A DNA stretch of 64,000 nt from contig CM000152.2 of NCBI GenBank assembly GCA_000004695.1, forward strand, positions 1,120,001 to 1,184,000. Direction: 5' to 3'. Position 1 is the first letter of the stretch, and every line of letters starts with the position of its first letter. Below the pieces are notes generated by a model. That model was not told where the DNA came from, ran no database searches, and worked only from the letters and a program-made list of their open reading frames with translations. The DNA is from Dictyostelium discoideum (taxonomy: Eukaryota). Below are positions 34,239 through 56,055 of the stretch, in pieces. The position numbers and the translations under genes were made by a program.

Positions 34239-34368
34239 ATTTTATTTATTTTTTTTTCTTTTTTTTTATTTATATTTATTTTATTTTAAAATAATTATTT
34301 AAAAGATAGTATATAAAATAAATAAATAAATAAGCGAATTGTCATACTTTCACACCCACCCACAACAG

Positions 34369-37300
34369 ATGAATAGTATTGAAAGTTCTTCTAATGATAG
34401 CAATGAGATAAATAAAAATTCAAACAAAAATAATACACACTTAAACTCCAACTATAATAATATTTATAAAAATAATAGCACTAGTAGTAATAATAATAAT
34501 AATCATAATAATATTGAAATTATTGGGATAGATAATAATAAAAATAATAATAAAAATAATAACGATAATAATAATAATAATAATAATATAGATAAAAAAA
34601 GAAAGGATAGTAAAAATAAACAAAACCAAGAAATAAATCAAGAAATGTCAGAAAATAAAAAAATTTATAATAGTAATGATAGTAATTGTAGTAGTGGTAG
34701 TAGTAGTGGAGGACATGTAAATAATGGTCATCATATATTAATTGAAGAGAATGAAAGATTAGAACATGAAAATCAAGAGATTCAAGAAATTTATAAACAA
34801 AAGGGTATGGAATTTCAAAAAAAAGATTTAAGATTTGGATATGATGTTAATAGTAATAATAATAATAATAATGGTGGTGGTAGTAGCAGTGGTAGTAGCA
34901 GTGGTGGTAGTGATGAATCTGCTTCAAATCAACCTATAATTAGAACTAGAAATAGAGAAGGTTCAATTTTAAATTTAAAGGTAAATTAAAAAAAAAAAAA
35001 GAAAAAAAAAAATCCAGGATTTCCAATATTTTCCAAGAAATTTCTTTATTTATTATATTAACTATTAAAAAATAAAAAATAAAAAAATAAAAAAAAATTA
35101 TTTAGAAACAAGGTCTTGTAAAAGAAATTAGTCAAAGATTTCAAACACCAGATACAGCATCATATACAAGACCAAATGCAAATAATATTTCAATTAAAGA
35201 TAAAATTTCTATATTAAAAAAGGAGCAAGAAAGAAGAAAACAAGATTCAGAAGTACAACAACGAGAAAAGGTTATAGTATTATCAGCAGATAGTTCAAAT
35301 ATTCAAATTTATCATCCCTCTGTTTTAATAGAAAAAATGAATAGTAAATTGGATACCGAAGAAAAGCCAGCAACAACGACAACAACTACTACTACAACAT
35401 CAACATCAATATCAACATCAACACCAACAACTACTACTACTACTACAACTAATACTTCTACTACTAATGATATTACAATTAAACCAAAAACATCACCAAC
35501 AAAAAATAATGAAGAAAGATCACAATCACCAATTACAACACCAAAACAACCAGTTGAAGAAATTGTTAAAAAAGTATCAACACCAAAATCAAATAATACT
35601 TCTAAAAAGACATCATCCGATACAACACCAACAGGAAAAACAACTAAAAAAGATAAAAAAGATAAAAAAGATAAATCAAGAGATAGTGGTAATTTAGTAA
35701 TTGTTAATAATACTAATAATACTAGTAGTAATAATAACAATAATAATAATAATAATAATAATAATGAAACAATTATAAAACGTAGAGGTAGAGTTTTAGT
35801 TACACCATCAAGTGATTTAAAAAAGAATATTCAAATTTATTTTACAATTCCAATAAATCCACCAGTAAATAAAACCAATAAACCAAATCAATTATTATCA
35901 AATACATCACAACAATTTTTAAAAACATTAATTTCAAATGAAATTCCAATCGATTGTAAAATCAATGATATCAACGATACTGATGCATTTTCCGATTTAT
36001 CAGCATCAGCATCATCATCATCATTTATAACAAAATCATCACAATCATTATTAAATGTGCAATCATTAAGAGTTAAAGCAATTAAAACATCATTTAATAT
36101 TTTATTTTTAATGCCAAATCAATCTAAAAAGATTTTACAAGTTAAAGGTTCAGATACAATTGAAAATTTAAAAGAAAGAATAATTTCAGATTATTTATTT
36201 AATAATAATAGTAATAATAATAATAATAATTGTAAATATGGAGCAGATTCTTATTTAATATTAGATTTTAATGATAATCCAATGGAAAGAAGTTTAGTAT
36301 TGAATAAAAGTGATTATATATTAGATAAAAGAGCACAAGGTTTAATACCAAAATTAAAAGTTATTGAAAAATCAACAATTTTAGATTCAGATCCATCTGA
36401 TGAATTATCACCAAGTGAATATGAAATTATTAGAAAATTAATACCAGGTACAGATACATGGAGAGGTGAAGAAGTTGAATACTTTAGAAGAGTTACAAGT
36501 AGATTAAGATATGAAGCATTACCATTGATTAAAGGATCAATTCAGTCTACTCTATTGGTTAGATTATCACCATTACCAATACCAATAGTTGGTAATAAAA
36601 TATTGATTTCTATATTTTTACCAATTACTCAAGTTACTAAAACATTGGATTTGGAATTGAATGAAACTGCCGATCAATTTACAAATAGATTATTTACAAA
36701 AAATTATTCAAAACATTTACCAAATGTAAATTCAAATGATTTCATATTAAAAGTAGTTGGTAGTTCAGATTTTATTCATGGTCCACATGATATTCGTACT
36801 TTTGAATCAATTAGAAATCATATAATTCAAGGTACAAAACCACAATTAACATTAATTCAAAGACCAAAACCAGAATTAGATCCACAACCATTTAAACCAC
36901 GTTTTGATTATCCACCAGAATTAATAATTGATCATAGTTGTAGTAATGCAATTAATTGTAATAATAATAATACAAATAGTACAAATAATAATAATATAAA
37001 TTTTGATAATTGGGATCAAATTACACATATTTCTATTAGAGAAATTAAAAAACCATTTAGAGTTAAAGTTATGGGATCAACTAGAATACCATTATCATGT
37101 ATTAAAGATATTGATAGTAGTAGTGTTATTGTTTCAATTTCATTATATCATGGTATTGAATGTTTTTCAAAAGCATTCACTCAACCAATTATACCACCAC
37201 CATTTGCATTTTTAGCTGAAACTTTATCAGTTGATTGGTGTGAATGGTTAGTTTTTACAAATATTGATTATTCAAATTTACCAGTGGATGCACGTTTATC

Positions 37301-39209
37301 AATTAGTGTCTATAGTGCAAATGAAACAGTTGATGATGTTGAAGAAATTAAAAATCTTGATGAAGCAACTAAAAAGTTAACACCAATTGGTTGGATTAAT
37401 GTTATGATTACTGATTTTAAATATCAACTTAGACAAGGTATGGTAGAATTATCGTTATGGCCATCTGATTTTTCAAATCCACTTGGTACTTGCTCAAATA
37501 ATCCATCAAGTAGTCAATCAGTTGGTTTAACATTAGAATTTGAAGAATTTAATTTACCAGTTTTATTCCCAAGAAAAACTAAATTCTCTACAAGTGTCTC
37601 AGTTATTGAACAACCACCAACCAATATAAATTCAAATGAAATGAGAGAATTCTTTGAGCAAATTACAGCATTAGACCCATTATCAGATTTAAAACAAGAG
37701 AAATATAATCAACTTTGGACTTTAAGACATTATTCAATTTTATTCCCACAAGTTTTACCAAGATTAATGTTAAGTGTACCATGGACTCAAGCAACTGCAG
37801 TAGATGAAGCAATTTCATTACTTGATAGATGGCCAAAACTTAAACCTTATGAATCATTGGAATTATTGGATGCAAAACATGCAAATAGAAAAGTTAGAGA
37901 ATTTGCAGTTACATGTTTAGAGGATCTTAGTGAAGATGAACTATTAGATATTCTATTACAATTAGTACAGGTTTTAAAATATGAACCATTCCATGATTCA
38001 AAATTATCAAGATTCTTATTAAGAAAAGCAATTTTAAATAGAAATATTGGTCATTCATTCTTTTGGTATTTAAAATCAGATTTACATGATAGTAATTTAT
38101 CAGAAAGATTTGGTATACTTTTGGAATCTTATTTGTATGCATGTGGTGCACATAGAATTGAGTTATTAAAACAAATGGAAGTTATTAATAATTTAACAGA
38201 GGTTGCAAAGAAAATTAAACCATTAAAAGATCAAGATAGAAGAGAATTTATGATTAAAGAATTTGAAAGTTTAGAATGGCCAAAACGATTTCATCTTACT
38301 TTAAATCCACGTTTTGAATCAAATGGTTTAATAATTAATAAATCAAAATATATGGATAGTAAAAAGTTACCTCTAAGATTATCTTTTACAAATACCGATA
38401 TGAACGCTGACCCTATTGAAGTGATTTTCAAAGCTGGTGATGATTTAAGACAAGATATGTTAACTTTACAAATGATTAGATTAATGGATAAGTTATGGCA
38501 AAAAGAAGGTTTAGATTTAAAATTATCTCCCTATGGCTGTATTTCAACTGGTGATATGATTGGTATGATTGAAGTGGTGTTAAATTCTGAAACCACTGCT
38601 AAAATTCAAAAAAGTGAAGGTGGTGGCGCTGCTTCCGCTTTCAAGTTGGATCCTTTGGCCAATTGGATATTGCAACATAATAAAAGTGATATGGAATATC
38701 AAAAAGCTGTAGACACATTCATACTCTCTTGTGCTGGTTATTGTGTTGCAACTTATGTACTTGGAATTGGTGATAGACATAATGATAATTTAATGGTTAC
38801 AAAAGGTGGTAGATTATTTCATATTGATTTCGGTCATTTCCTTGGTAATTATAAAAAGAAATTTGGTTTCAAAAGAGAACGTGCTCCTTTTGTTTTCACT
38901 CCTGATTTTTGTTATGTAATGGGTGGTAAAGAATCTTTTAAATTTAGTCAGTTTGTAAATTATTGTTGTACCGCTTATAATATCGTTAGAAAGAATGCTA
39001 AATTATTTATGAATTTATTCGCTATGATGGTTTCTACTGGTATTCCAGAATTACAATCTATGGAAGATTTAAATTATTTAAAAGAATCTTTTTCAATAGA
39101 ATTATCTGATGAAAAAGCAAGGGAGAAATTTGTTGCTTTAATTCATGAAAGTTTAGCTACAAAAACTACTCAACTTAATAATTTTTTTCATCATCTTGCA
39201 CATGCTTAG
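34369..39209 (+). CDS. pikA: Class I phosphatidylinositol 3-kinase catalytic subunit, join(34369..34980,35106..39209), 1571 aa: an N-rich N-terminus, Ras-binding, C2 and PIK helical domains, and the PI3K/PI4K catalytic domain.
   Basis: The catalytic block reads GDDLRQDMLTLQMIRLMDKLWQKEGLDLKLSPYGCISTGDMIGMIEVV...GIGDRHNDNLMVTKGGRLFHIDFGHFLGNYKKKFGFKRERAPFVFTPDF. Exon 1 is an N-rich ORF whose first ATG is at 34369 and which ends at an AAG/GTAAAT donor. The 125-nt intron ends TTATTTAG at 35105. Frame stays open from 35106 into the 1290-aa ORF. The 1571-aa length matches what I recall for Dictyostelium PI3K1; that symbol is tentative. Confidence 0.8.
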
Positions 39210-39959: not shown

Positions 39960-41600
39960 TAGTGAAATAATTGATGTTTTAATAAAATCAAATACTTCAA
40001 ATCCATTTCCTTCTTCAGAATTTTCAAATGGTATATATGAATTTTTCTTCAAAAAATTTATTAAAAATCAACAATCACCAAAATCAATTTTTTATTTATT
40101 CTTTGGATTAAAACCTAAATTAAGAGAATATGATGTAGATTTGGTAATAGATTTATTCCTTAAAGAAAGTTTAGATAATCAATCTTTGTTTTATAGATTA
40201 TTTTCATCTTCATATTTGTGTAATCGAGAATTAGTTTTAAATAATCTTTTTGATAGATTTGTCAAGTCTGAAAATAGGAATTTTAACATAATAGATAAAT
40301 TACTTCGTTTATTATAAGTTCATAGATTTGGTACTATTAAAAAATCAAAAACCTTCCAAACATTGAAATCCTTTGTTAATGGTAATGATTATCCAATTTT
40401 TTTGGATTTCAAGGTCTTATTATCCATTTTTCTCTCAAAAAAACTTGGGTTCAATTTATTTGATCATTTTAAAAATGATTTATTACCAGATTTTTTTAAA
40501 AATTACAATCAGTCTTTCATTATTTTAAAAAACAATTTTCCAAAATTTTTTAACAATTTTTCGCTAAACCATTATAATGCAGAGCCTTTATTAGTGTAAG
40601 TTTAATACATGATAAAATAAAATAATAATAATAATCTTTATTTATTAATTGTTCTTTTTTTTTTTTTTTAAAAATTAATTCCAGTTTATTAAATTCAAAT
40701 GGTTGGACCATCTTCAATAGTACCATCAAAAATTTTAGTTAATTACTTAAATCAATTTCTAATAATTTCTGAATCAATTGAAGAACCAATTTTTACTTCA
40801 AATTTTCAAGTTTTTTGTACAGTTTGTAATACTCTAACTAAATCAAATCCAATAATATTTGAATTTTCAGTAAATCGATCAAATGATATACAAAGTTGTG
40901 TTGAAAATAGTTTATACAAGTAAACTGGTCAAATTGAATTTTGTAAAAATTGTAAAAAAGATAATATTGGAAGACTATCTTTAAATAATATTCCATCACA
41001 TTTATTAATCTCTATTGATAGAGTAAAAAATGGTGAAATTTCATTCCAATCATTCAATTTAATTGAAAAAATAAGTATTGGTGATTTTAGTTTTATTGGT
41101 AATCCAATTCCATTAAATAATCAATTACATTCAATCATTATGTCAAATGGTGAAAAAAGTTCAATTCATATTAATCAAATTGAAAATAAAGCAATTAGAT
41201 GTACGAGTGGACATATATCATATTAATAGAAATGATTTTTTGGATTATGAAAAAAGAAATTCAATTTTAATAATTTATAAAAATAAAAATAATAACAATA
41301 ACAATACGAATAATATAAATAATAATATTATTTATAATAATAACCAATTTGAAATTATTAAAGATATAAATAATTTTAATAATTTATCCAAACAACAAAT
41401 TATTGATAGTGGTCTCAATAACTATTTGGTTACTTGGGTAAATAAATTACCAATTGGTGAAAATCAACTTTTTGAAATTTCCAAGAATTTAGAGACAAAT
41501 AACATAAATAATTTCAAAAATGCTTTTTCAATTTCAGATTGGGACTCTATCATCAGTACAAATGGTCCCAAGAATATATTTTTAGAATACCTTAGATAAC
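39960..41600 (+). pseudogene. Degenerate ubiquitin carboxyl-terminal hydrolase (USP/UBP, peptidase C19)-like gene remnant.
   Basis: Three ORFs lie in two frames. USP His-box-like motifs are present: CTVCN...CKNCKK...IPSHLLISIDRVKNGEI...FIGNPIPL...HSIIMSNGEKS...SGHISY. An in-frame TAA follows ...SLYK at 40921, and there is a +1 shift between ...SGHI and YHINRNDFLDYEK. No Cys-box was found, and a possible GTAAGT...CCAG intron at 40597..40683 does not rescue the frame. Confidence 0.5.
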
Positions 41601-41693: not shown

Positions 41694-44600
41694 TTAATTT
41701 AAACTTTCAATAAAATCTTTTAAAGTTTTTAAAATTTCATTAAAAGTGAAACCATCGATTGGATTCCAACATTTATGAATAAAGTTTTTAATGTTTGGAT
41801 CAATTTTATCTAAACCTATTGATGGTTTTTCTTGGCCAAATTTGCGAGTATCACCAACTAAAATTTCATCAATTAGTAATTCATAAGATAAGACTGCAAA
41901 TGAATGAATATTATACTTTAGTGAACTACTATTATTACTATTATTACTATTATTATTATTATTATTATTATTATTGTTGTTGTTATTATTATTATTATTA
42001 CTATTATTACTGTTATTAAAATCATTGTTTTGTTTTGGATCTCTTATAATTGAAATTTCTCTGGTTAAATTAATTGGTGTATCAACTCTTTCTATATAAT
42101 TATTACAAGCTAATCCTTTAATAGTTTTACTTGATGTTAGATCTAATACTTTAGCACAAACCTCTGCATTTTCATTGGTATCATAAAGGAAAATATTTCT
42201 AGCTCTTAGAGTTTTTTGAATGATTGAACTTTGTTGAAGGAATTTACAACCTTTGGCAACATCAATAAGAATTCTAATCTTTTGAGTGATTGACATTTTT
42301 AGTTTCTTTTTTGAAATTATATAATCCAAACTTCCAAGGGGTGGATATTCAAAGGCTAAACATAAATAATCCTTTGAAATTACACAACCAATCAATGGTA
42401 AAATATTTTGATGTTTTAATCTACTAATAATATTTAATTCTCTATAAGCTTCTTCACAATTTTTTGTTTTTAACTTTATCAATTTAAGTAAAGCATTTTT
42501 ATCTCCAACTGTTCCTCTATATAATATCTCCCATGAATATTTCTCTATCAACTCTTGGAAATGAATATCATTAAAATCCAATCTTGTCGAGGATTCACTT
42601 TCAACCTTTATTTTGAGTAGAGTATACATTTCTTTAATATTATTTGAATTGATTTGAATTGAAAAATTTTCAAAAAACCTTGTTGTACAATGTAAAGTAA
42701 TTGAAAATTTTATTGAAAATGTTTCACCTGGACCAAGATCAAATGATGAATGATCTGATGTAAAAGTGGCTGAATGATTATCCATTGGTAAAATTAAAAA
42801 TGCTGTAAATCTTATTGTTGAATCATTTGTAATTGAAAGAGTATCATAATAGGTTTCACCTAATTTTGCTTTTCCATTAATTAAACCAAATGTTATTATA
42901 CTTTGATTAAACCTTAATGGGAAATTTGAAAAATCTTTAAAATCTGATAATGCGCAACATGTCAATATATCATTTGTTGTTCTAAATGAAAAATCTAATC
43001 TCTTTTCTCTTTTTAATATTTCAAATGCTAATTTTTGAAATTCTAAAGTTTGAAATTCATCTGGAAATGTACTATTTATAATTGGTATTGTATCATTACT
43101 AATTTCATCAATTTTAAAACTTTCTAATTTATTTGAATAAATTTGATAATTATTATTACCATTACTGTTACTATTACTATTACTATTACTATTACTATTA
43201 ATATTAATATTACTATTACTATTACTATTATTATTACTGTTACTATTATTATTATTATTATTATTATTACTATTACTATTACTATAATTACTATTACAAT
43301 TACTATAAATAATATTATTACTATTATTATTATTACTATTATTATTATTATTATTATTATTAAAATAATTATTATTATTTAAACTTTGATTTTTAAATTT
43401 ATATCTATTATTATTTTTTGGTATTTGATTATTAAATATTGAATCTGATGATATTGTATCTAATATTGATATTGATGGATAAGATGAATGACTTGTAATT
43501 TTTGGTAAAACTTTAATTTCAATTTCATTATTTTGGGCATATTCAATATCTTTATTTGATTTTGAGAGGAATTGAGATAATCTTTTTCTATGTTTAACTA
43601 TTAAAATTGTAATGATTGATAAAGCCAAAGATCCTAAAACTATTGATAAAACAATTGCCAAAATAGCTGGTTTACTAGCTTTAACACTTTCAATGGGTAA
43701 TAAGGTTGGTGTTATTGGATCAATAATTTGAGGTAATGAATCACTAACTGAAAAGATTGCCAATGATGTTAAATAAATATCACCACGACTTGTGAATGAA
43801 ATATTTAAAAAATCGAGTGATTGTGTGTTATTATAAACAAATGTTAAATTTTTTGAAAAAGGTTGATCGCCAGCGAATGGTTCCATCACTAAAACTGGAT
43901 TTTTTTGAATAGATACAGATAATGGACTTGAATATTGATCGATTGGTTTATAAAAAGTGAAAAATAATTGAACTTGTAAAGTTGCTATTGATTTATTAAT
44001 AAATAAATCAATTATAACTGGATCATATTGAACATCTGATGTAATTCCCCAAGAAAATAAACTATTTAATGTTGATGAGGCTGTAACATTTGGTAAACCA
44101 CCAACATATTTTGCATTACTTGAAAGTTGGCAACCTAAAGTTTTTATACAACCACCTTGAAATTTTAAACCATCCAATTCATTTATTTTATTATTATTAT
44201 CATTAACTAATTGATTATTATTTGTTGTTGTTGGTGTTGATGTTGATGTTGATGTTGATGTCGATGTTGGTGTTGGAGTTGGTATTATTGTTGTTGATGT
44301 TGGATCAATCATTTGCCAACCAGCATTAAATAAAGATTGTCCATAAACAGTTATAATTGGAAAATCAATTATAAAATAATAACTTGAATCTTTAGAATAT
44401 TCATTTTTAATTGTAACACGAATATTATGATTACCTAATTTTTCAGATACATAAAGAAAACTACATTTTGTTGAGATTGGATTATATTGAACCTCTTTTG
44501 ATTCCATACCATTGGATGAGAAAATACAAATGATTGGAGTTTTTAAACCCATATTATTCAATTTAACTGAAAGAGAAACTGAAGAATTGAAAAACATTTT

Positions 44601-46399
44601 ATGAGGTTCATTTGGATAAACAGTTTCAACTTTTAATGAATCCAAAACACTTTTACTAAAATAATAAATTGGAGTAATCGATGACCCAAATACTTTTTCA
44701 GGTGGTTCAGTTGTTTCTGGTGACCCATAAATATAAGTATTTTGAAAGTTTGTGACTGTAGTTGTTGTTTCATCAAAAAACTTTTGTGTTGAAGTTAAGT
44801 TTGTATTAAAACTTGAATTTATAAAATCTAATCTTGAAACTGTACCATTGAATGAAAAATTTTCGGTTGCATTTAAATTATTAAATACTAATGCACTATT
44901 TGGTAAATAAGCTGAAACTGTATCTGATGCTACTAAATCTTTAATTGTAAAAAATCTTCCTGGTGAATTACCATTATTATTAATATTTAAAAGATAATGA
45001 TTTTGTGAATTATTATTATTATTATTATCATCATTATTATTATTTTCATTATTAATATTTAATAAGTTAAAATTGTTTGTATTATTATTATTATCATTAT
45101 TATTATTATTTAATTTATAAAAATAAGTTGAATTATTAATTTTAAAATCAACAGGATATTGAATTAAATTTGAAAATAAAATTGAAGTATTTGTACAAGG
45201 TGAGTAACAATCATTATCAAAACCTGTTATAATGGACCTATTACCAATGAAATTAAAATTAAGAGCAATCAATTGAGAAATAAAAGTATCATTTATTGAT
45301 TGAACATTTGGAGATAATGAATAGATTCCATTACCTTCAAATCCATAATCCATACTAAAAGGTGAAGGAAAATTGATAGGGGAATTTAAACCGAACGGTT
45401 GTGGTAGTGGTGGTATTAAAAAGTAATGATTTAATTTTGATTTTATAAATTCAGTGCCATATTGAGCGATTAAATTTGAACCTGATTTACTAACTATTAA
45501 ACTCTCTGATAATGATACATTTGAACTAACGAAAATGAGTGGTGCTCTAGATTCTTTAACTCTATCAATGATAGCACAACCTTTTATAACTACACTATTT
45601 GAAAATTCTATATACAATGAGTTTCTAAATCTTTGATTTTCACCCTTTATTATATCGATCACTTGATTTGGTTTATCATTTGAGAAAATTAATTTCGTAT
45701 CATTATAAAGTTTATTGGTGGTTTTACCTATTGAATCCAATGTAAAATTTTCAATTTGAACTTGTGAATCACCAGTTATATATATAGATGATCCAACAGT
45801 CGATGTAGAATCTATAAATGATTCACTTGAACCACCTAATAAATATTTACAATTAAAATGAACTATTATATTTTTATCATTTTTTGAAATTGGTAAACAA
45901 TTGGTTCCTCTTAATGATGACGATGATGATGATGTTAAATTAATTTTATCATTACTTGCTCCAAATGAAAATGAACATGTTTGACCTTCTGAAATTTGTT
46001 GACTATAAATTGTAACTTTTGAACCTAAATATATATTGTTTGTCAATGATCCTATTTTTTTGAAATCTTCAATTTGTAATTGATAATCATCAATTCTAGT
46101 GGCTTGGAAAATTCTTTTTTTCTCTCCAATCAATGATAATGATCCTCCCAAAACCATCATACCTGGAAAGAAATTAAATGGATCCATTTTTGAATTATAA
46201 GGATCTAAATCTGTAAATCTGATACTTGATTTACTATTTAATACACCACCTGGTAATATAAATAAAGCTCCAACATTAAAAAATGATATACCTTCTGGAA
46301 TTTCTAATGTTCCTTCAATACATAATACATTAATTTTATAAATTGGTATTCCACCATTACCAACTCTGTATTTCATTTTTGTCCCTATTTAATAATTAT

Positions 46400-46439
<40 letters not shown>

Positions 46440-46498
46440 ATTAGTTATTTTTGACCTTCATAGTTTTTTTTTTGATTTTGATCAGTTTTTTTTTTTTT

Positions 46499-46531
<33 letters not shown>

Positions 46532-46856
46532 CGAAAAAAAAAAAAAAAAAAAAACAGTGATAAAAATTTTATATAGGTACCTCTTGTTATCATTAAATTT
46601 GAAGATTCTTGTGCACCGGGAAATGATGATCTACCAAAATATAATGAACCAGGTATGTTTTGAATAGTACCTTCACAAATATCAGGATAAAATAAATCAT
46701 GAAACGATGATGAATATATGGTTTTATTATTTCTTTCGATCTGAATTTTTGAAAATTGTTGAAATTTATCAATCTTTTTTAAGTTATAATATCCAGGTGG
46801 AGTATCAATTAATTCACATTCTGAACCTATTTTTAAAAATTAAAAGTTAGTATTAT

Positions 46857-46887
<31 letters not shown>

Positions 46888-47049
46888 CAACCCAACATAT
46901 TGGAAAAAACCAATAATAATTATCAGAATTGAATCAAAAAAAAAAAAAAAAAAAAAGATAAAAAAAATCAAAAAATCAAAAAAAAAAAAAAATTGCCTAC
47001 CTATTAATAAAAAAACAACAAAAAAGATAGATAATAAAATTTTTTTCAT
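41694..47049 (-). CDS. Receptor-like type I membrane protein with a TKL-type pseudokinase domain, complement(join(41694..46384,46581..46826,47001..47049)), 1661 aa: a signal peptide, a roughly 900-aa N-glycosylation-rich ectodomain, one TM helix, a poly-N region, a juxtamembrane domain and a kinase-like domain lacking the catalytic Asp.
   Basis: Exon 1 [16 protein letters not shown] ends at a GTAGGC donor. Exon 2 [18 protein letters not shown]... runs from an AAAATAG acceptor to a GTACCT donor. Exon 3 begins [12 protein letters not shown] after TTAAATAG. The phases are consistent. The TM helix is [31 protein letters not shown]. Kinase subdomains are present ([40 protein letters not shown]), but HRDLKxxN is replaced by QKTLRARN and DFG by DLT. 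Confidence 0.75.
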
Positions 47050-48704: not shown

Positions 48705-50792
48705 TTAATTTTTTTTGGCTTTTTCTGATTTAATATAATTTAAAGCGGAACCAGCTTTGAACCATTCGATTTGACCAGCATTCATGGTGTGATTAGCTTT
48801 AATTTCAAATTCAGAACCTTGTTTAGCAGATTTAACAATGAGAGTGAGTTGTTTACCTGGGGCAAGATCTTTGAGACCAATGATTGAAATACGATCGTCA
48901 CCAGAGATTTTATCGTAATCAGATGGGTTAGCAAAGGTTAATGGTAAGATACCTTGTTTCTTGAGATTGGTTTCGTGGATACGAGCAAATGATTTAACGA
49001 GGATAGCTTTACCACCGAGATGACGTGGTTCGAGGGCAGCATGTTCACGAGATGAACCTTCACCATAGTTTTCATCACCAACGACGATCCAATTGACACC
49101 ACGTTTCTTGTAGTCACGAGCGACGGTTGGGACTGGACCGATTTCACCAGTGAATTGATTGAGAACAGCGTTGGCTTTACCGTTTTCAGAGTTGATAGCA
49201 CCAATTAACATATTGTTGGAAATGTTATCCAAATGACCTCTGTATTTCAACCATGGACCAGCCATAGAGATGTGATCGGTGGTACATTTACCTTGAACCT
49301 TGATGAGAACTTGCATATCGACTAAATCTTTCTTATCCCATGGGGCAAATGGTTGGAGTAATTGTAATCTGCTGCTTTCTGAATCAACGATAACGTTAAT
49401 GTTTTGACCATTTGGTGATGGTGGTTGGTAAGTGTTTTCACCGGCATCAAAACCACGTGATGGGAGTTCATCACCAGTTGGTGGGGTTAATTTGAATTTG
49501 TTACCATCTTTATCAGTGAGGAAATCGGTCATTGGATTGAATGTAATATCACCAGCAATAGTGAGGGCAGTGACAATCTCTGGTGAGGCGACGAAAGCAT
49601 GAGTATTGACGTTGCTATCGTTACGACCAGTGAAATTTCTATTGTAAGAGGTGATGATAGAGTTCTTTTCACCCTTTGGAACATCTTCTCTCTTCCATTG
49701 ACCAATACATGGACCACAAGCGTTGGCGAGTACAACACCACCAACTTTCTCTAAAACTTTCATTTGACCATCACGTTCAATGGTGGCTCTAATTTGTTCG
49801 GAACCTGGGGTAATGGTGAATTTGGCTTTGGCAGTGATACCTTTATCGAGGGCTTGTTGAGCGACAGATGCTGAACGACTCATATCTTCATATGAACTGT
49901 TGGTACATGAACCGATGAGACCAACTTTTAATTCGGCTGGCCAGTTATTGGTTTTAACTGATTCAGCGAATTTGGAGAGTGGATGACCGAGATCTGGGGT
50001 GAATGGACCATTGATGTATGGTTCGAGTGTATCGAGATTGAGTTCAATCAATTGATCGTAGTGAGCATTTGGATCGGCAACCAAGTTGTGTTTGAATGAG
50101 TTGGCAGCATTTGCGATATTTGAACGACCAGTTGAATTTAAGTAGTCAACCATACGTTTATTGAATGGGAATAAAGAGGTGGTAGCTCCGATTTCAGCAC
50201 CCATATTACAAATGGTGGCCATACCAGTACAAGAGAGAGATTCAACACCTGAACCAAAGTATTCGACGATGGCACCTGTACCACCTTTAACAGTGAGAAT
50301 ATCGGCAACACGAAGGATGACATCCTTTGGTGATGACCAACCCTTGAGTGAACCAGTTAATTTGACACCAATGATCTTTGGTGCTTTCAATTCCCATGGG
50401 ATACCTGCCATAACATCGACGGCATCAGCACCACCAACACCAACTGCGACCATACCTAAACCACCAGCATTTGGTGTATGACTATCAGTACCAATCATTA
50501 AACCACCTGGGAATGCATAATTTTCTAAAACGATTTGATGGATAATACCTGAACCTGGCTTCCAGAAACCCATACCAAATTTCTTAGCACTGGTTGAAAG
50601 GAAATCGTAAACTTCTTTATTGATATCTTTTGCAACTTCTAAATCTTTTTCACCACCTTTATATGCTTCAATTAAATGATCACAATGAATTGTTGTTGGT
50701 ACTGCAGTTTCTGGTAAACCAGCTGACATAAATTGTAATACAGCCATTTGTGCGGTGGCATCCTTTAAAAAAAAAAAAAAAATTTGTTAATC

Positions 50793-54735: not shown

Positions 54736-56055
54736 ATGACAACACCAAGAGTACCAACAACATTTACAAGAAAAGTAGCAGGTGGAGTTAAAACTACAAC
54801 AACAGGATCATCATTACCAACAAATAATACATCAACAACAACAACAACAACAACAACAGCAGCAAAGAAATTACCAAATGGATGTAAAATTTCAATTAAA
54901 AATTCAAATTTATTAACATCAACAGGTTTAACAGATTTAGATGATATTATTGGTGGTGGTATACCAATTGGTAGTATATTAATGATTGAAGAAGATATAA
55001 ATAGTAGTTATTATATGTTTTTATTAAAGTATTTCCTTGCAGAAGGTGTACTTCAACAACAGGGTGTATTCTTTTCATCTTTAATTGGTATTGATCCATT
55101 TGAAATTTTAAATAAATTACCTGCAAGAATTACAAAAGAAGAAGAAATTGAAGCTGATAAAAATGATACTACAAATAATATAAATACAAATATAAATACA
55201 AATAACAATAATAAACAACCAACAGATGAATTAAAAATTGCATGGAGATATCAACAATATGTTTCAAATGAGTTATCAAAACAACAACAACAGCAATCAG
55301 CATCAACAATAATGAATCAAACATTTTGTCATAGTTATGATTTTACAAGAAAGATGAATGTTCAATCAATGAATCCTGAATTGATTCATACATTATCACA
55401 TGATGCACAATCACAGGCAGAAGGCACATCACCATATAGAAATTTATTTTTAGAGATTCAAAATTTAGTTTACAAATATAATAAAGAGGCAGCAATGAAC
55501 CCTGACCAAACTAGAGTATTACGTTTATGCATTCAATCATTCTCTTCACCACTTTGGTCCAACGATGAAGAGGGAGTCATAGAGTTTTTACATGCATTAA
55601 AGGGTTTGTTACGTTCATCAGTTGCAACTTGCGTTATATCAGTTCCAACCTATATCTATAGTGGTGCCTTTGTTAAAAAGATCGCTCATTTATGCGATAC
55701 CGTGGTCTCAATTAACTCTTTTAGTGGTTTAGGTGGTGAAACACCTGAACAATTCGCAGAGTATCTTGGTCTTTTCAATATCCGTAAGATTGCCCGTTTA
55801 AATACTTTATCATTATCATTTCATCCCGATATGTTAACTTTTGTATTCAAAATGAAAAGAAGAAAGATGTGTATCGAAACAATTCATTTACCACCCGAAT
55901 CTTCACGTGCTGGTGATTCAAAACCTGATAATAATGACTCAAATAAAAATAAATCCGATCAAAATAATATTGTTTCAAAAATGAAATCTGGAAGTGGTTT
56001 ATTATGTGGTGGAGGTGGTGGTGGTTCTAGTAATAACAATCCTTTAGATTTTTAA
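54736..56055 (+). CDS. elp4: Elongator complex protein 4 (ELP4/PAXNEB, RecA-like fold), 439 aa.
   Basis: KISIKNSNLLTSTGLTDLDDIIGGGIPIGSILMIEEDINSSYYMFLLKYFLAEGVLQQQGVFFSSL matches the conserved ELP4 N-terminal core. A C-terminal block reads ...LCDTVVSINSFSG. Confidence 0.75.
   Translation: MTTPRVPTTFTRKVAGGVKTTTTGSSLPTNNTSTTTTTTTTAAKKLPNGCKISIKNSNLLTSTGLTDLDDIIGGGIPIGSILMIEEDINSSYYMFLLKYFLAEGVLQQQGVFFSSLIGIDPFEILNKLPARITKEEEIEADKNDTTNNINTNINTNNNNKQPTDELKIAWRYQQYVSNELSKQQQQQSASTIMNQTFCHSYDFTRKMNVQSMNPELIHTLSHDAQSQAEGTSPYRNLFLEIQNLVYKYNKEAAMNPDQTRVLRLCIQSFSSPLWSNDEEGVIEFLHALKGLLRSSVATCVISVPTYIYSGAFVKKIAHLCDTVVSINSFSGLGGETPEQFAEYLGLFNIRKIARLNTLSLSFHPDMLTFVFKMKRRKMCIETIHLPPESSRAGDSKPDNNDSNKNKSDQNNIVSKMKSGSGLLCGGGGGGSSNNNPLDF

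What the first reader, a model, noticed from the sequence alone, without database searches (positions are those of the whole stretch)
41694..47049. Large signal-peptide plus single-TM receptor-like protein whose cytoplasmic kinase domain has lost its catalytic residues
Three exons rebuild a 1661-aa type I membrane protein: the signal peptide [16 protein letters not shown], a roughly 900-aa heavily N-glycosylatable ectodomain, one TM helix, a poly-N spacer and a TKL-like kinase fold. The kinase retains subdomains III, V, IX and XI, but HRD is replaced by QKT and DFG by DLT. Dictyostelium is generally held to lack classical receptor tyrosine kinases, so a receptor-shaped transmembrane pseudokinase is a candidate scaffold or co-receptor for cell-cell or cell-substrate signalling. 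The 5' exons with the signal peptide lie within poly-A/T-rich sequence and are missed by the ORF track.
Basis: partly seen in the sequence, partly recalled or inferred. Interest (0 to 1): 0.6.

Follow-up and report, generated by a model that had tools for sequence, protein, structure and literature searches.

The report
Known Dictyostelium gene gdt1, receptor-like pseudokinase

Summary
Three exons on the minus strand (47049..47001, 46826..46581, 46384..41694; GT..AG introns of 174 and 196 nt) give a 1661-aa protein. It has a hydrophobic N-terminal signal sequence, a ~990-aa ectodomain with 23 N-glycosylation sequons, one strong TM helix (1005-1028), a poly-N/S spacer and a C-terminal TKL-type kinase fold. 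In that fold HRD is QKT and DFG is DLT.

It is not new. The first 399 residues, spanning both splice junctions, are identical to 'DDB0215003 Gdt1 gdtA' in Table S2 of the Dictyostelium kinome paper (PMC1420674). That table already lists it as TKL/Gdt family, predicted inactive, 'ALLK / QKTLRARN / DLT, multiple insults'. The same paper describes six GDT proteins as classic receptor-kinase architectures. Gdt1 and Gdt2 are published negative regulators of the growth-to-differentiation transition.

My alignments add some nuance. The catalytic Asp, Gly-rich loop, APE, subdomain IX Asp and subdomain XI Arg are lost. The beta3 Lys, alphaC Glu, catalytic-loop Asn and the Asp of DFG are kept.

The parts
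47001..47049 (-). Exon 1 of gdt1: start codon and signal peptide [16 protein letters not shown] (plus the first base of Gly17)
   Evidence: Hydropathy peak 5-23, KD 2.25. Identical to published Gdt1.
46827..47000 (-). Intron 1, 174 nt, GTAGGC...AATAG, 13% GC
   Evidence: Read-through hits a stop (69-aa ORF 46840..47049). The junction is confirmed by the published protein.
46581..46826 (-). Exon 2 (residues 17-99): conserved N-terminal Gdt motif [10 protein letters not shown]...YYPDIC...FPG
   Evidence: (invariant P26 Y29 Y63 P64 C67 F85 across 20 sequences).
46385..46580 (-). Intron 2, 196 nt, GTACCT...AAATAG, 11% GC, mostly homopolymer A/T
41694..46384 (-). Exon 3 (residues 99-1661 plus stop codon 41694..41696)
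45240..46382 (-). Predicted right-handed parallel beta-helix (pectin-lyase-like) part of the ectodomain, residues ~100-480. The boundaries are approximate.
43596..43667 (-). Single transmembrane helix [24 protein letters not shown] (residues 1005-1028), followed by KHRKR
   Evidence: KD 2.77; helix 1016-1031.
43146..43391 (-). Cytoplasmic poly-N/S low-complexity spacer (residues 1097-1178)
42597..42917 (-). Conserved cytoplasmic beta-sandwich (ASH/HYDIN-like Ig domain), residues ~1255-1361, directly before the kinase domain
   Evidence: AF2 pLDDT 80-94. Conserved in all kinase-bearing paralogues. Sub-threshold Pfam ASH E 0.0046 and HYDIN_VesB_CFA65-like_Ig E 9.9e-5 / 4e-4.
41697..42584 (-). 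TKL-type pseudokinase domain (residues 1366-1661)
   Evidence: Pfam. phmmer vs PDB, best hit Roco4 at 5e-16. Foldseek top hits Roco4, TNNI3K, BRAF with TM ~0.74.
42519..42545 (-). Degenerate glycine-rich loop EKYSWEILY (paralogues have GxGxFGxVY)
42195..42218 (-). Catalytic loop QKTLRARN in place of HRDLKPxN. The catalytic Asp is lost and the Asn is retained.
42135..42143 (-). DLT in place of DFG. The Asp is retained.
41919..42032 (-). Poly-N insert (residues 1550-1587) between the degenerate APE (TRE) and subdomain IX. Predicted disordered.
   Evidence: (pLDDT ~30).

Best explanation
The locus is the Dictyostelium discoideum gene gdt1 (gdtA, DDB0215003), the founding member of the Dictyostelium-specific GDT family of the TKL kinase group.

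Shown here:
- It encodes a 1661-aa type I membrane protein.
- Its parts, in order, are: a signal peptide; an ectodomain whose N-terminal ~400 residues are predicted to form a pectin-lyase-like beta-helix followed by beta-sandwich modules; one TM helix; a poly-N/S linker; an ASH-like Ig domain; and a complete bilobal kinase fold.
- The kinase fold lacks the catalytic Asp, the Gly-rich loop, APE and other motifs.

From the literature: Gdt1 restrains the switch from growth to development, acts together with Gdt2 (which has an intact kinase), and contributes to polyphosphate-induced proliferation arrest.

Inferred: Gdt1 signals without transferring phosphate. The ectodomain senses an extracellular cue, plausibly a carbohydrate or polyanion linked to food or cell density. 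The folded pseudokinase and Ig module then act as a docking or allosteric platform, for example for an active Gdt paralogue or another kinase, in the way metazoan receptor pseudokinases do.
For: Identity:
- Residues 1-399 match Table S2 of PMC1420674 at 100%, and the motifs listed there ([15 protein letters not shown], 'kmc', 'i', 'multiple insults') are the ones found here.
- The Fig S1 fragments of Gdt1 match the window sequence.

Family:
- Paralogue hits reach E 1e-255 and include Gdt5 (Q54MK0).
- The ectodomain has only 13 relatives among 1.84 billion representatives.

Architecture.

Motif loss:
- Shown by alignment to Roco4 and to paralogues.
- Pfam score is 69-73 bits over profile 28-146, against 173-189 bits over the full profile for the active paralogues.

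The fold is retained and the gene is intact:
- AF2 and Foldseek give TM ~0.74 to TKL kinases.
- The ORF stays open where about 8.8% of random codons would be stops.

Function:
- PMC1420674 and PMC8262924, both citing Zeng et al. 2000 and Chibalina et al. 2004.
Against: - The two primary papers could not be read here, so functional statements rest on secondary citations and my recollection.
- The exact 1661-aa sequence is not in the protein collection, and only 399 residues of the published sequence were available for direct comparison.
- No Gdt1 orthologue was retrieved, so conservation of the degenerate motifs across species is untested.
- Loss of activity is predicted from sequence only. K72, E91, N171 and D184 equivalents are retained, so nucleotide binding or atypical catalysis is not excluded.
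- The ligand and the partner proteins are unknown.
- The ectodomain model has only moderate confidence (pLDDT 64).
Confidence: 0.9

Rival explanations
1. The Gdt1 kinase domain is an atypical but active kinase that uses a non-canonical catalytic geometry, as WNK, CASK, haspin or the Gly-loop-less WNG kinases do.
For: Equivalents of the beta3 Lys (ALLK), alphaC Glu (YRE), catalytic-loop Asn (RARN) and the DFG Asp (DLT) are retained. A complete kinase fold is predicted. PMC1420674 itself warns of 'alternate active site geometries'. A Gly-loop-less active kinase family is documented (PMC6442604, abstract listed).
Against: The catalytic base Asp is Thr (QKT). The Gly-rich loop, APE, subdomain IX Asp and subdomain XI Arg are all lost as well ('multiple insults'). 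Pfam aligns only profile positions 28-146. From my recollection, Chibalina et al. 2004 also considered the domain probably non-functional.
Confidence: 0.08
2. The C-terminal kinase-like region is a decaying relic with no function. Gdt1 works only through its ectodomain and TM segment, like the kinase-less family members Gdt5 and Gdt7.
For: Kinase-less paralogues of 950-1250 aa exist (P0014 = Gdt5, P0017-P0021). The family shows repeated catalytic decay, with Gdt6-like TNCN plus K72R, and HGD / HCD variants. A 38-residue poly-N tract has been inserted in the domain.
Against: About 300 codons stay open in DNA where ~8.8% of random codons are stops. Hydrophobic core and structural motifs are conserved with the paralogues at 31-37% identity. 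AF2 predicts a well-packed bilobal fold, with many 10-residue blocks at pLDDT 80-94.
Confidence: 0.07
3. The 5' exons are not part of the gene. Translation starts at the ATG at 46376, giving a 1560-aa protein without a signal peptide.
For: The uninterrupted ORF starts at that ATG. No transcript data could be consulted here.
Against: Exon 2 encodes residues invariant in all paralogues. GT..AG introns of typical size and AT content keep the frame. The published protein includes both exons. Paralogues all begin with a comparable hydrophobic leader.
Confidence: 0.02

Closest known systems
Dictyostelium discoideum Gdt1 (gdtA, DDB0215003), TKL group, GDT family (Zeng et al. 2000; Goldberg et al. 2006, PMC1420674)
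   Same: It is this gene. The N-terminal 399 aa are identical, the diagnostic motifs ALLK / QKTLRARN / DLT are the same, and so are the architecture and the predicted inactivity.
   Different: Nothing detectable. Only part of the published sequence was available for comparison, and poly-N tract lengths could differ between strains.
Gdt2, Gdt4 and Gdt9 (active GDT-family receptor kinases)
   Same: Same ectodomain family (38-43% identity), the same signal peptide / single TM / ASH-like domain / TKL kinase layout, and the same biological process for Gdt2.
   Different: They keep GxGxxG, VAVK, HRDLKPxN, DFG, APE-like, DVYSF and RPxF, and score 173-189 bits over the full Pfam kinase profile. Gdt1 has lost most of these.
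Metazoan and plant receptor pseudokinases (e.g. HER3/ErbB3, ROR/RYK/PTK7, plant pseudokinase RLKs such as BIR2)
   Same: Type I receptor topology with a folded cytoplasmic kinase domain lacking the catalytic Asp. The likely mode of action is as an allosteric partner or scaffold for an active paralogue. This is an inference from general knowledge of those families.
   Different: No orthology. Gdt1 belongs to a Dictyostelium-specific TKL family. Its ectodomain is a beta-helix rather than EGF-receptor L-domains, Ig, Fz or LRR modules. Heterodimerisation with an active Gdt has not been shown.
TMEM2 / CEMIP-type cell-surface beta-helix proteins and pectin-lyase-fold enzymes and adhesins
   Different: Only 7-15% identity, and no Pfam G8, PbH1 or pectate-lyase match at E<=10. 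Catalytic residues were not assessed. TMEM2 is a type II protein without a kinase domain.

Membership tests
GDT family (TKL group) of Dictyostelium kinases | Shared 'gdt_ex' extracellular domain | tested here: met
   E 1e-255 to 1e-111 to 20 Gdt paralogues, including Gdt5/Q54MK0. 38-43% identity with more than 100 invariant columns. Relatives are limited to 13 representatives in 1.84e9 proteins.
GDT family (TKL group) of Dictyostelium kinases | Signal peptide plus a single TM helix flanking the ectodomain (classic receptor-kinase architecture) | tested here: met
   Hydropathy peaks at 5-23 and 1009-1027 only exceed 1.6. AF2 predicts helices at 2-16 and 1016-1031. No SignalP or TMHMM was available.
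GDT family (TKL group) of Dictyostelium kinases | C-terminal ePK domain of TKL type | tested here: met
   Pfam PK_Tyr_Ser-Thr E 4.8e-19, a partial match. Best PDB sequence and fold matches are Roco4, TNNI3K, MLK and BRAF.
Gdt1 itself (DDB0215003) | Sequence identity with the published protein | tested here: met
   399/399 identical over the stored part of Table S2, and the motif columns ALLK / QKTLRARN / DLT are identical. The remaining 1262 residues could not be compared directly, apart from OCR fragments of Fig S1.
Gdt1 itself (DDB0215003) | [quoted passage not shown] | not testable with these tools
   Literature only: PMC1420674 and PMC8262924, citing Zeng 2000 and Chibalina 2004.
Pseudokinase (criteria of Manning / Goldberg: K72, D166, D184 of PKA) | Loss of at least one of K72, D166, D184 | tested here: met
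   D166 is Thr (HRD->QKT). K72 (ALLK) and D184 (DLT) are retained. The published call is 'i' for inactive.
Pseudokinase (criteria of Manning / Goldberg: K72, D166, D184 of PKA) | Absence of phosphotransfer activity | not testable with these tools
   Requires biochemistry.
Receptor tyrosine kinase (TK group) | Kinase domain belonging to the TK group with an intact catalytic loop (HRDLAARN-type) | tested here: not met
   The closest solved kinases are TKLs. The catalytic loop is [11 protein letters not shown]1420674 states that Dictyostelium has no TK-group kinases.
Pectin-lyase-fold / G8-PbH1 beta-helix proteins | Right-handed parallel beta-helix fold | tested here: met
Pectin-lyase-fold / G8-PbH1 beta-helix proteins | Sequence-profile membership (Pfam G8, Beta_helix, Pectate_lyase etc.) | tested here: not met
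   No Pfam family at E<=10 for the ectodomain of Gdt1, and none at E<=0.1 for six paralogues.
ASH / PapD-like Ig domains | Profile match above the gathering threshold, and a beta-sandwich fold | tested here: inconclusive
   AF2 predicts a confident 7-9-strand beta-sandwich. The Pfam ASH match is E 0.0046 (17.5 bits against a cutoff of 27). HYDIN_VesB_CFA65-like_Ig matches at 9.9e-5 in 2 of 9 paralogues and 4e-4 in P0030. All of these are below cutoff. There was no PDB profile hit.

The most novel reading that the evidence does not exclude
Two structural features of Gdt1, and of the whole GDT family, appear in none of the papers I could search. (1) The 'gdt_ex' ectodomain begins with a pectin-lyase-like beta-helix, closest over its length to the TMEM2 hyaluronidase ectodomain. 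(2) An ASH/HYDIN-like Ig domain is fused directly to the kinase N-lobe in the cytoplasm. If both are real and undescribed, GDT proteins would be glycan- or polyanion-sensing beta-helix receptors. They might detect bacterial polysaccharide (food) or extracellular polyphosphate, coupling this to a kinase or pseudokinase through an Ig module. That would give a concrete, testable ligand hypothesis for the growth-to-development switch.
Probability: 0.3. Interest if true: 0.4.

Novelty: already known. Interest (0 to 1): 0.1.

Why it matters
As a discovery it does not matter. The gene, its receptor-like architecture, its degenerate kinase motifs and its role in the growth-differentiation transition have been in the literature since 2000-2006.

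It is useful as a check on the first-stage reader, whose de novo exon reconstruction and motif calls were accurate.

The one forward-looking point is the fold assignment. A carbohydrate-type beta-helix ectodomain, together with an ASH-like Ig module next to the pseudokinase, suggests what kind of ligand and what kind of intracellular docking to look for in a pathway whose input signal is still unknown.

Tried and rejected
- Retrieving Gdt1 or its orthologues from the protein collection. I searched with the full protein, a version stripped of low-complexity tracts, an exact look-up and an exhaustive phmmer of the ectodomain. Only paralogues of 46% identity or less came back, so cross-species conservation of the dead motifs could not be assessed.
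- Reading the two primary papers (Zeng 2000, Chibalina 2004) by PMC id and by DOI. Neither is held. Searches for 'gdt1 + discoidin' and 'gdtA' found nothing.
- A first alignment of the cytoplasmic region against full-length paralogues scattered the N-terminal residues. I redid it with trimmed sequences.
- A profile search of the ASH-like domain against PDB sequences gave no hits.
- Pfam found no domain in the ectodomain of Gdt1 or its paralogues. A G8 domain, which I suspected from the motif pattern, has no sequence-level support.
- No tRNA genes are in the window, so the GC-rich block at 48.7-50.7 kb is not an RNA gene. It is an aconitase coding region.
- I considered and rejected three readings: a classical RTK (the domain is TKL, not TK group), a pseudogene (the ORF is intact and the fold well predicted), and a multi-pass membrane protein (the two extra hydrophobic peaks score only ~1.45, and one lies inside the kinase core).
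Full report
**Observation**

The window is AT-rich (about 76% A+T), with poly-N-rich coding sequence typical of Dictyostelium. The ORF listing shows a 1560-aa ORF at 41694..46376 on the minus strand. At this composition about 8.8% of random codons are stops, so an open frame of that length has a chance probability near 1e-63.

- Exon 1 is 47049..47001.
- Intron 1 is 47000..46827 (174 nt, GT..AG, 13% GC).
- Exon 2 is 46826..46581.
- Intron 2 is 46580..46385 (196 nt, GT..AG, 11% GC).
- Exon 3 is 46384..41694.

The product is 1661 aa, in frame, with one stop. Exon 2 is not just an open frame. It carries residues that are invariant across 19 paralogues (P26, Y29, Y63, P64, C67, F85).

**Anatomy**

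Kyte-Doolittle hydropathy gives two strong hydrophobic segments: 5-23 (the N-terminal leader [16 protein letters not shown]) and 1009-1027 (the TM helix, followed by KHRKR). Two weak peaks of about 1.45 lie at 130-148 and 1426-1444, and the latter is inside the kinase core. From my recollection, these weak peaks probably explain why the original 2000 paper spoke of four putative TM segments, whereas the 2006 kinome paper describes a signal peptide plus a single TM.

The ectodomain (17-1004) has 23 N-x-S/T sequons. Low-complexity tracts lie at 520-563 (N), 803-831 (T/S), 1097-1178 (N/S) and 1550-1587 (N).

**Kinase domain**

Pfam PK_Tyr_Ser-Thr matches at E 4.8e-19, but only over profile positions 28-146 of 258 (69-73 bits). 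Active paralogues score 173-189 bits over the whole profile.

Alignment to the solved Dictyostelium Roco4 kinase puts '[10 protein letters not shown]' on 'IVHRDLRSPN' and 'KVLDLTSS' on 'KVADFGLS'. My MAFFT alignment with 16 paralogues gives the same result and adds further losses:
- Gly-rich loop: GxGxFGxVY becomes EKYSWEILY.
- APE-like: MSPE/LSNE becomes LTRE.
- Subdomain IX: DVYSF becomes NIHSF.
- Subdomain XI: RPxF becomes GFTF.

The equivalents of K72 (ALLK), E91 (YRE), N171 (RARN) and D184 (the D of DLT) are retained. 'Has lost its catalytic residues' is only partly right, and 'retains IX and XI' holds only in outline.

An AlphaFold2 model of residues 1220-1661 (pLDDT 73) shows a complete bilobal kinase with a disordered poly-N insert. 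Foldseek ranks TKL kinases first (Roco4, TNNI3K, BRAF; TM about 0.74 normalised to the target).

**Identity**

The homologue search returned only Dictyostelium proteins, one of them named Growth-differentiation transition protein 5 (Q54MK0).

The Dictyostelium kinome paper (Goldberg et al. [quoted passage not shown] The 399 residues stored are 100% identical to my spliced model and span both splice junctions. Its Figure S1 rows for Gdt1 show the same catalytic-loop and DLT strings, next to Gdt2, Gdt4 and Gdt9 with HRDLKPxN and DFG.

The finding is therefore gdt1. Its predicted inactivity, with exactly these substitutions, was published in 2006. From my recollection, the poor conservation of the kinase core was already noted by Zeng et al. 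2000, and Chibalina et al. 2004 called it probably non-functional. Neither paper could be opened here.

**Function from the literature**

[quoted passage not shown] They are negative regulators of that transition. The 'scaffold/co-receptor' idea remains a reasonable but untested mechanism.

**Extra anatomy found here**

(b) Between the poly-N/S linker and the kinase, residues ~1255-1361 form a confidently predicted beta-sandwich (pLDDT 80-94). It is conserved in all kinase-bearing paralogues. It gives sub-threshold matches to ASH and HYDIN/CFA65/VesB-like Ig families.

(c) The family shows repeated catalytic decay:
- Gdt6-like proteins have TNCN plus a K72R change.
- Gdt8-like proteins have HGD.
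- One D. discoideum strain's Gdt5-like protein has HCD.
- Several members lack the kinase domain altogether.

None of the papers I could search links Gdt proteins with a beta-helix or an ASH domain. This is weak evidence of novelty, because the primary papers and database annotations were not available.

**Mechanism**

Shown: the architecture, the fold and the motif losses. From the literature: the role as a negative regulator of the growth-differentiation transition.

Inferred: Gdt1 transduces an extracellular cue non-catalytically. Its folded pseudokinase and Ig module would serve as a docking or allosteric partner, possibly for active Gdt paralogues such as Gdt2.

Rivals:
- An atypical active kinase (about 0.08).
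- A functionless relic domain (about 0.07).
- A wrong 5' gene model (about 0.02).

**Limits**

- No Gdt1 orthologue was retrievable, so selection on the degenerate domain is untested.
- No transcript data were available.
- No signal-peptide predictor was available.

**Verdict**

Novelty: already known. Interest: 0.1.

Noticed in passing
   Followed up: partly
window 42597..42917 (-), residues ~1255-1361: A conserved cytoplasmic beta-sandwich lies immediately N-terminal to the kinase domain in all kinase-bearing Gdt paralogues. It gives sub-threshold Pfam matches to ASH and HYDIN/CFA65/VesB-like Ig domains. I found no description of it in the papers I could search.
   Followed up: partly
paralogues P0002/P0004/P0005/P0008 (Gdt6-like), P0006, P0012/P0013/P0015 (Gdt8-like), P0014 and P0017-P0021 (kinase-less): The GDT family shows repeated, independent-looking erosion of the kinase. 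Variants include TNCN plus K72R, HCD, HGD, one DLG in a Gdt4-like protein (P0011), and complete loss of the kinase domain. Gdt1 is therefore one of several non-canonical members.
   Followed up: partly
window 41919..42032 (-), residues 1550-1587: A 38-residue poly-N/S tract is inserted inside the kinase C-lobe, between the degenerate APE (TRE) and subdomain IX. No paralogue has it, and it is predicted disordered.
   Followed up: yes
window 48705..50747 (-): The neighbouring gene encodes an aconitase (Pfam Aconitase 7e-139 plus Aconitase_C). Its GC content is 0.37-0.43, about twice the window average. The Pfam match begins at profile position 54, so an upstream exon is likely.
   Followed up: partly
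window 35337..39209 (+), perhaps with upstream exons near 34339..34989: A class I PI3-kinase gene (Ras-binding domain, C2, PIK accessory and catalytic domains) lies about 2.5 kb from the 3' end of gdt1.
   Followed up: no
window 54736..56055 (+): An Elp4/PAXNEB homologue (Pfam PAXNEB 8.5e-98).
   Followed up: no
window 41147..41599 (+): A 150-aa N-rich ORF with no Pfam match converges on gdt1, ending 95 bp from the gdt1 stop codon. Whether it is a real gene or an exon is undetermined.
   Followed up: no
window 46402..46531 and 46859..46992: Both gdt1 introns consist largely of very long A/T homopolymer runs, up to ~130 nt at 75% purity.
   Followed up: no
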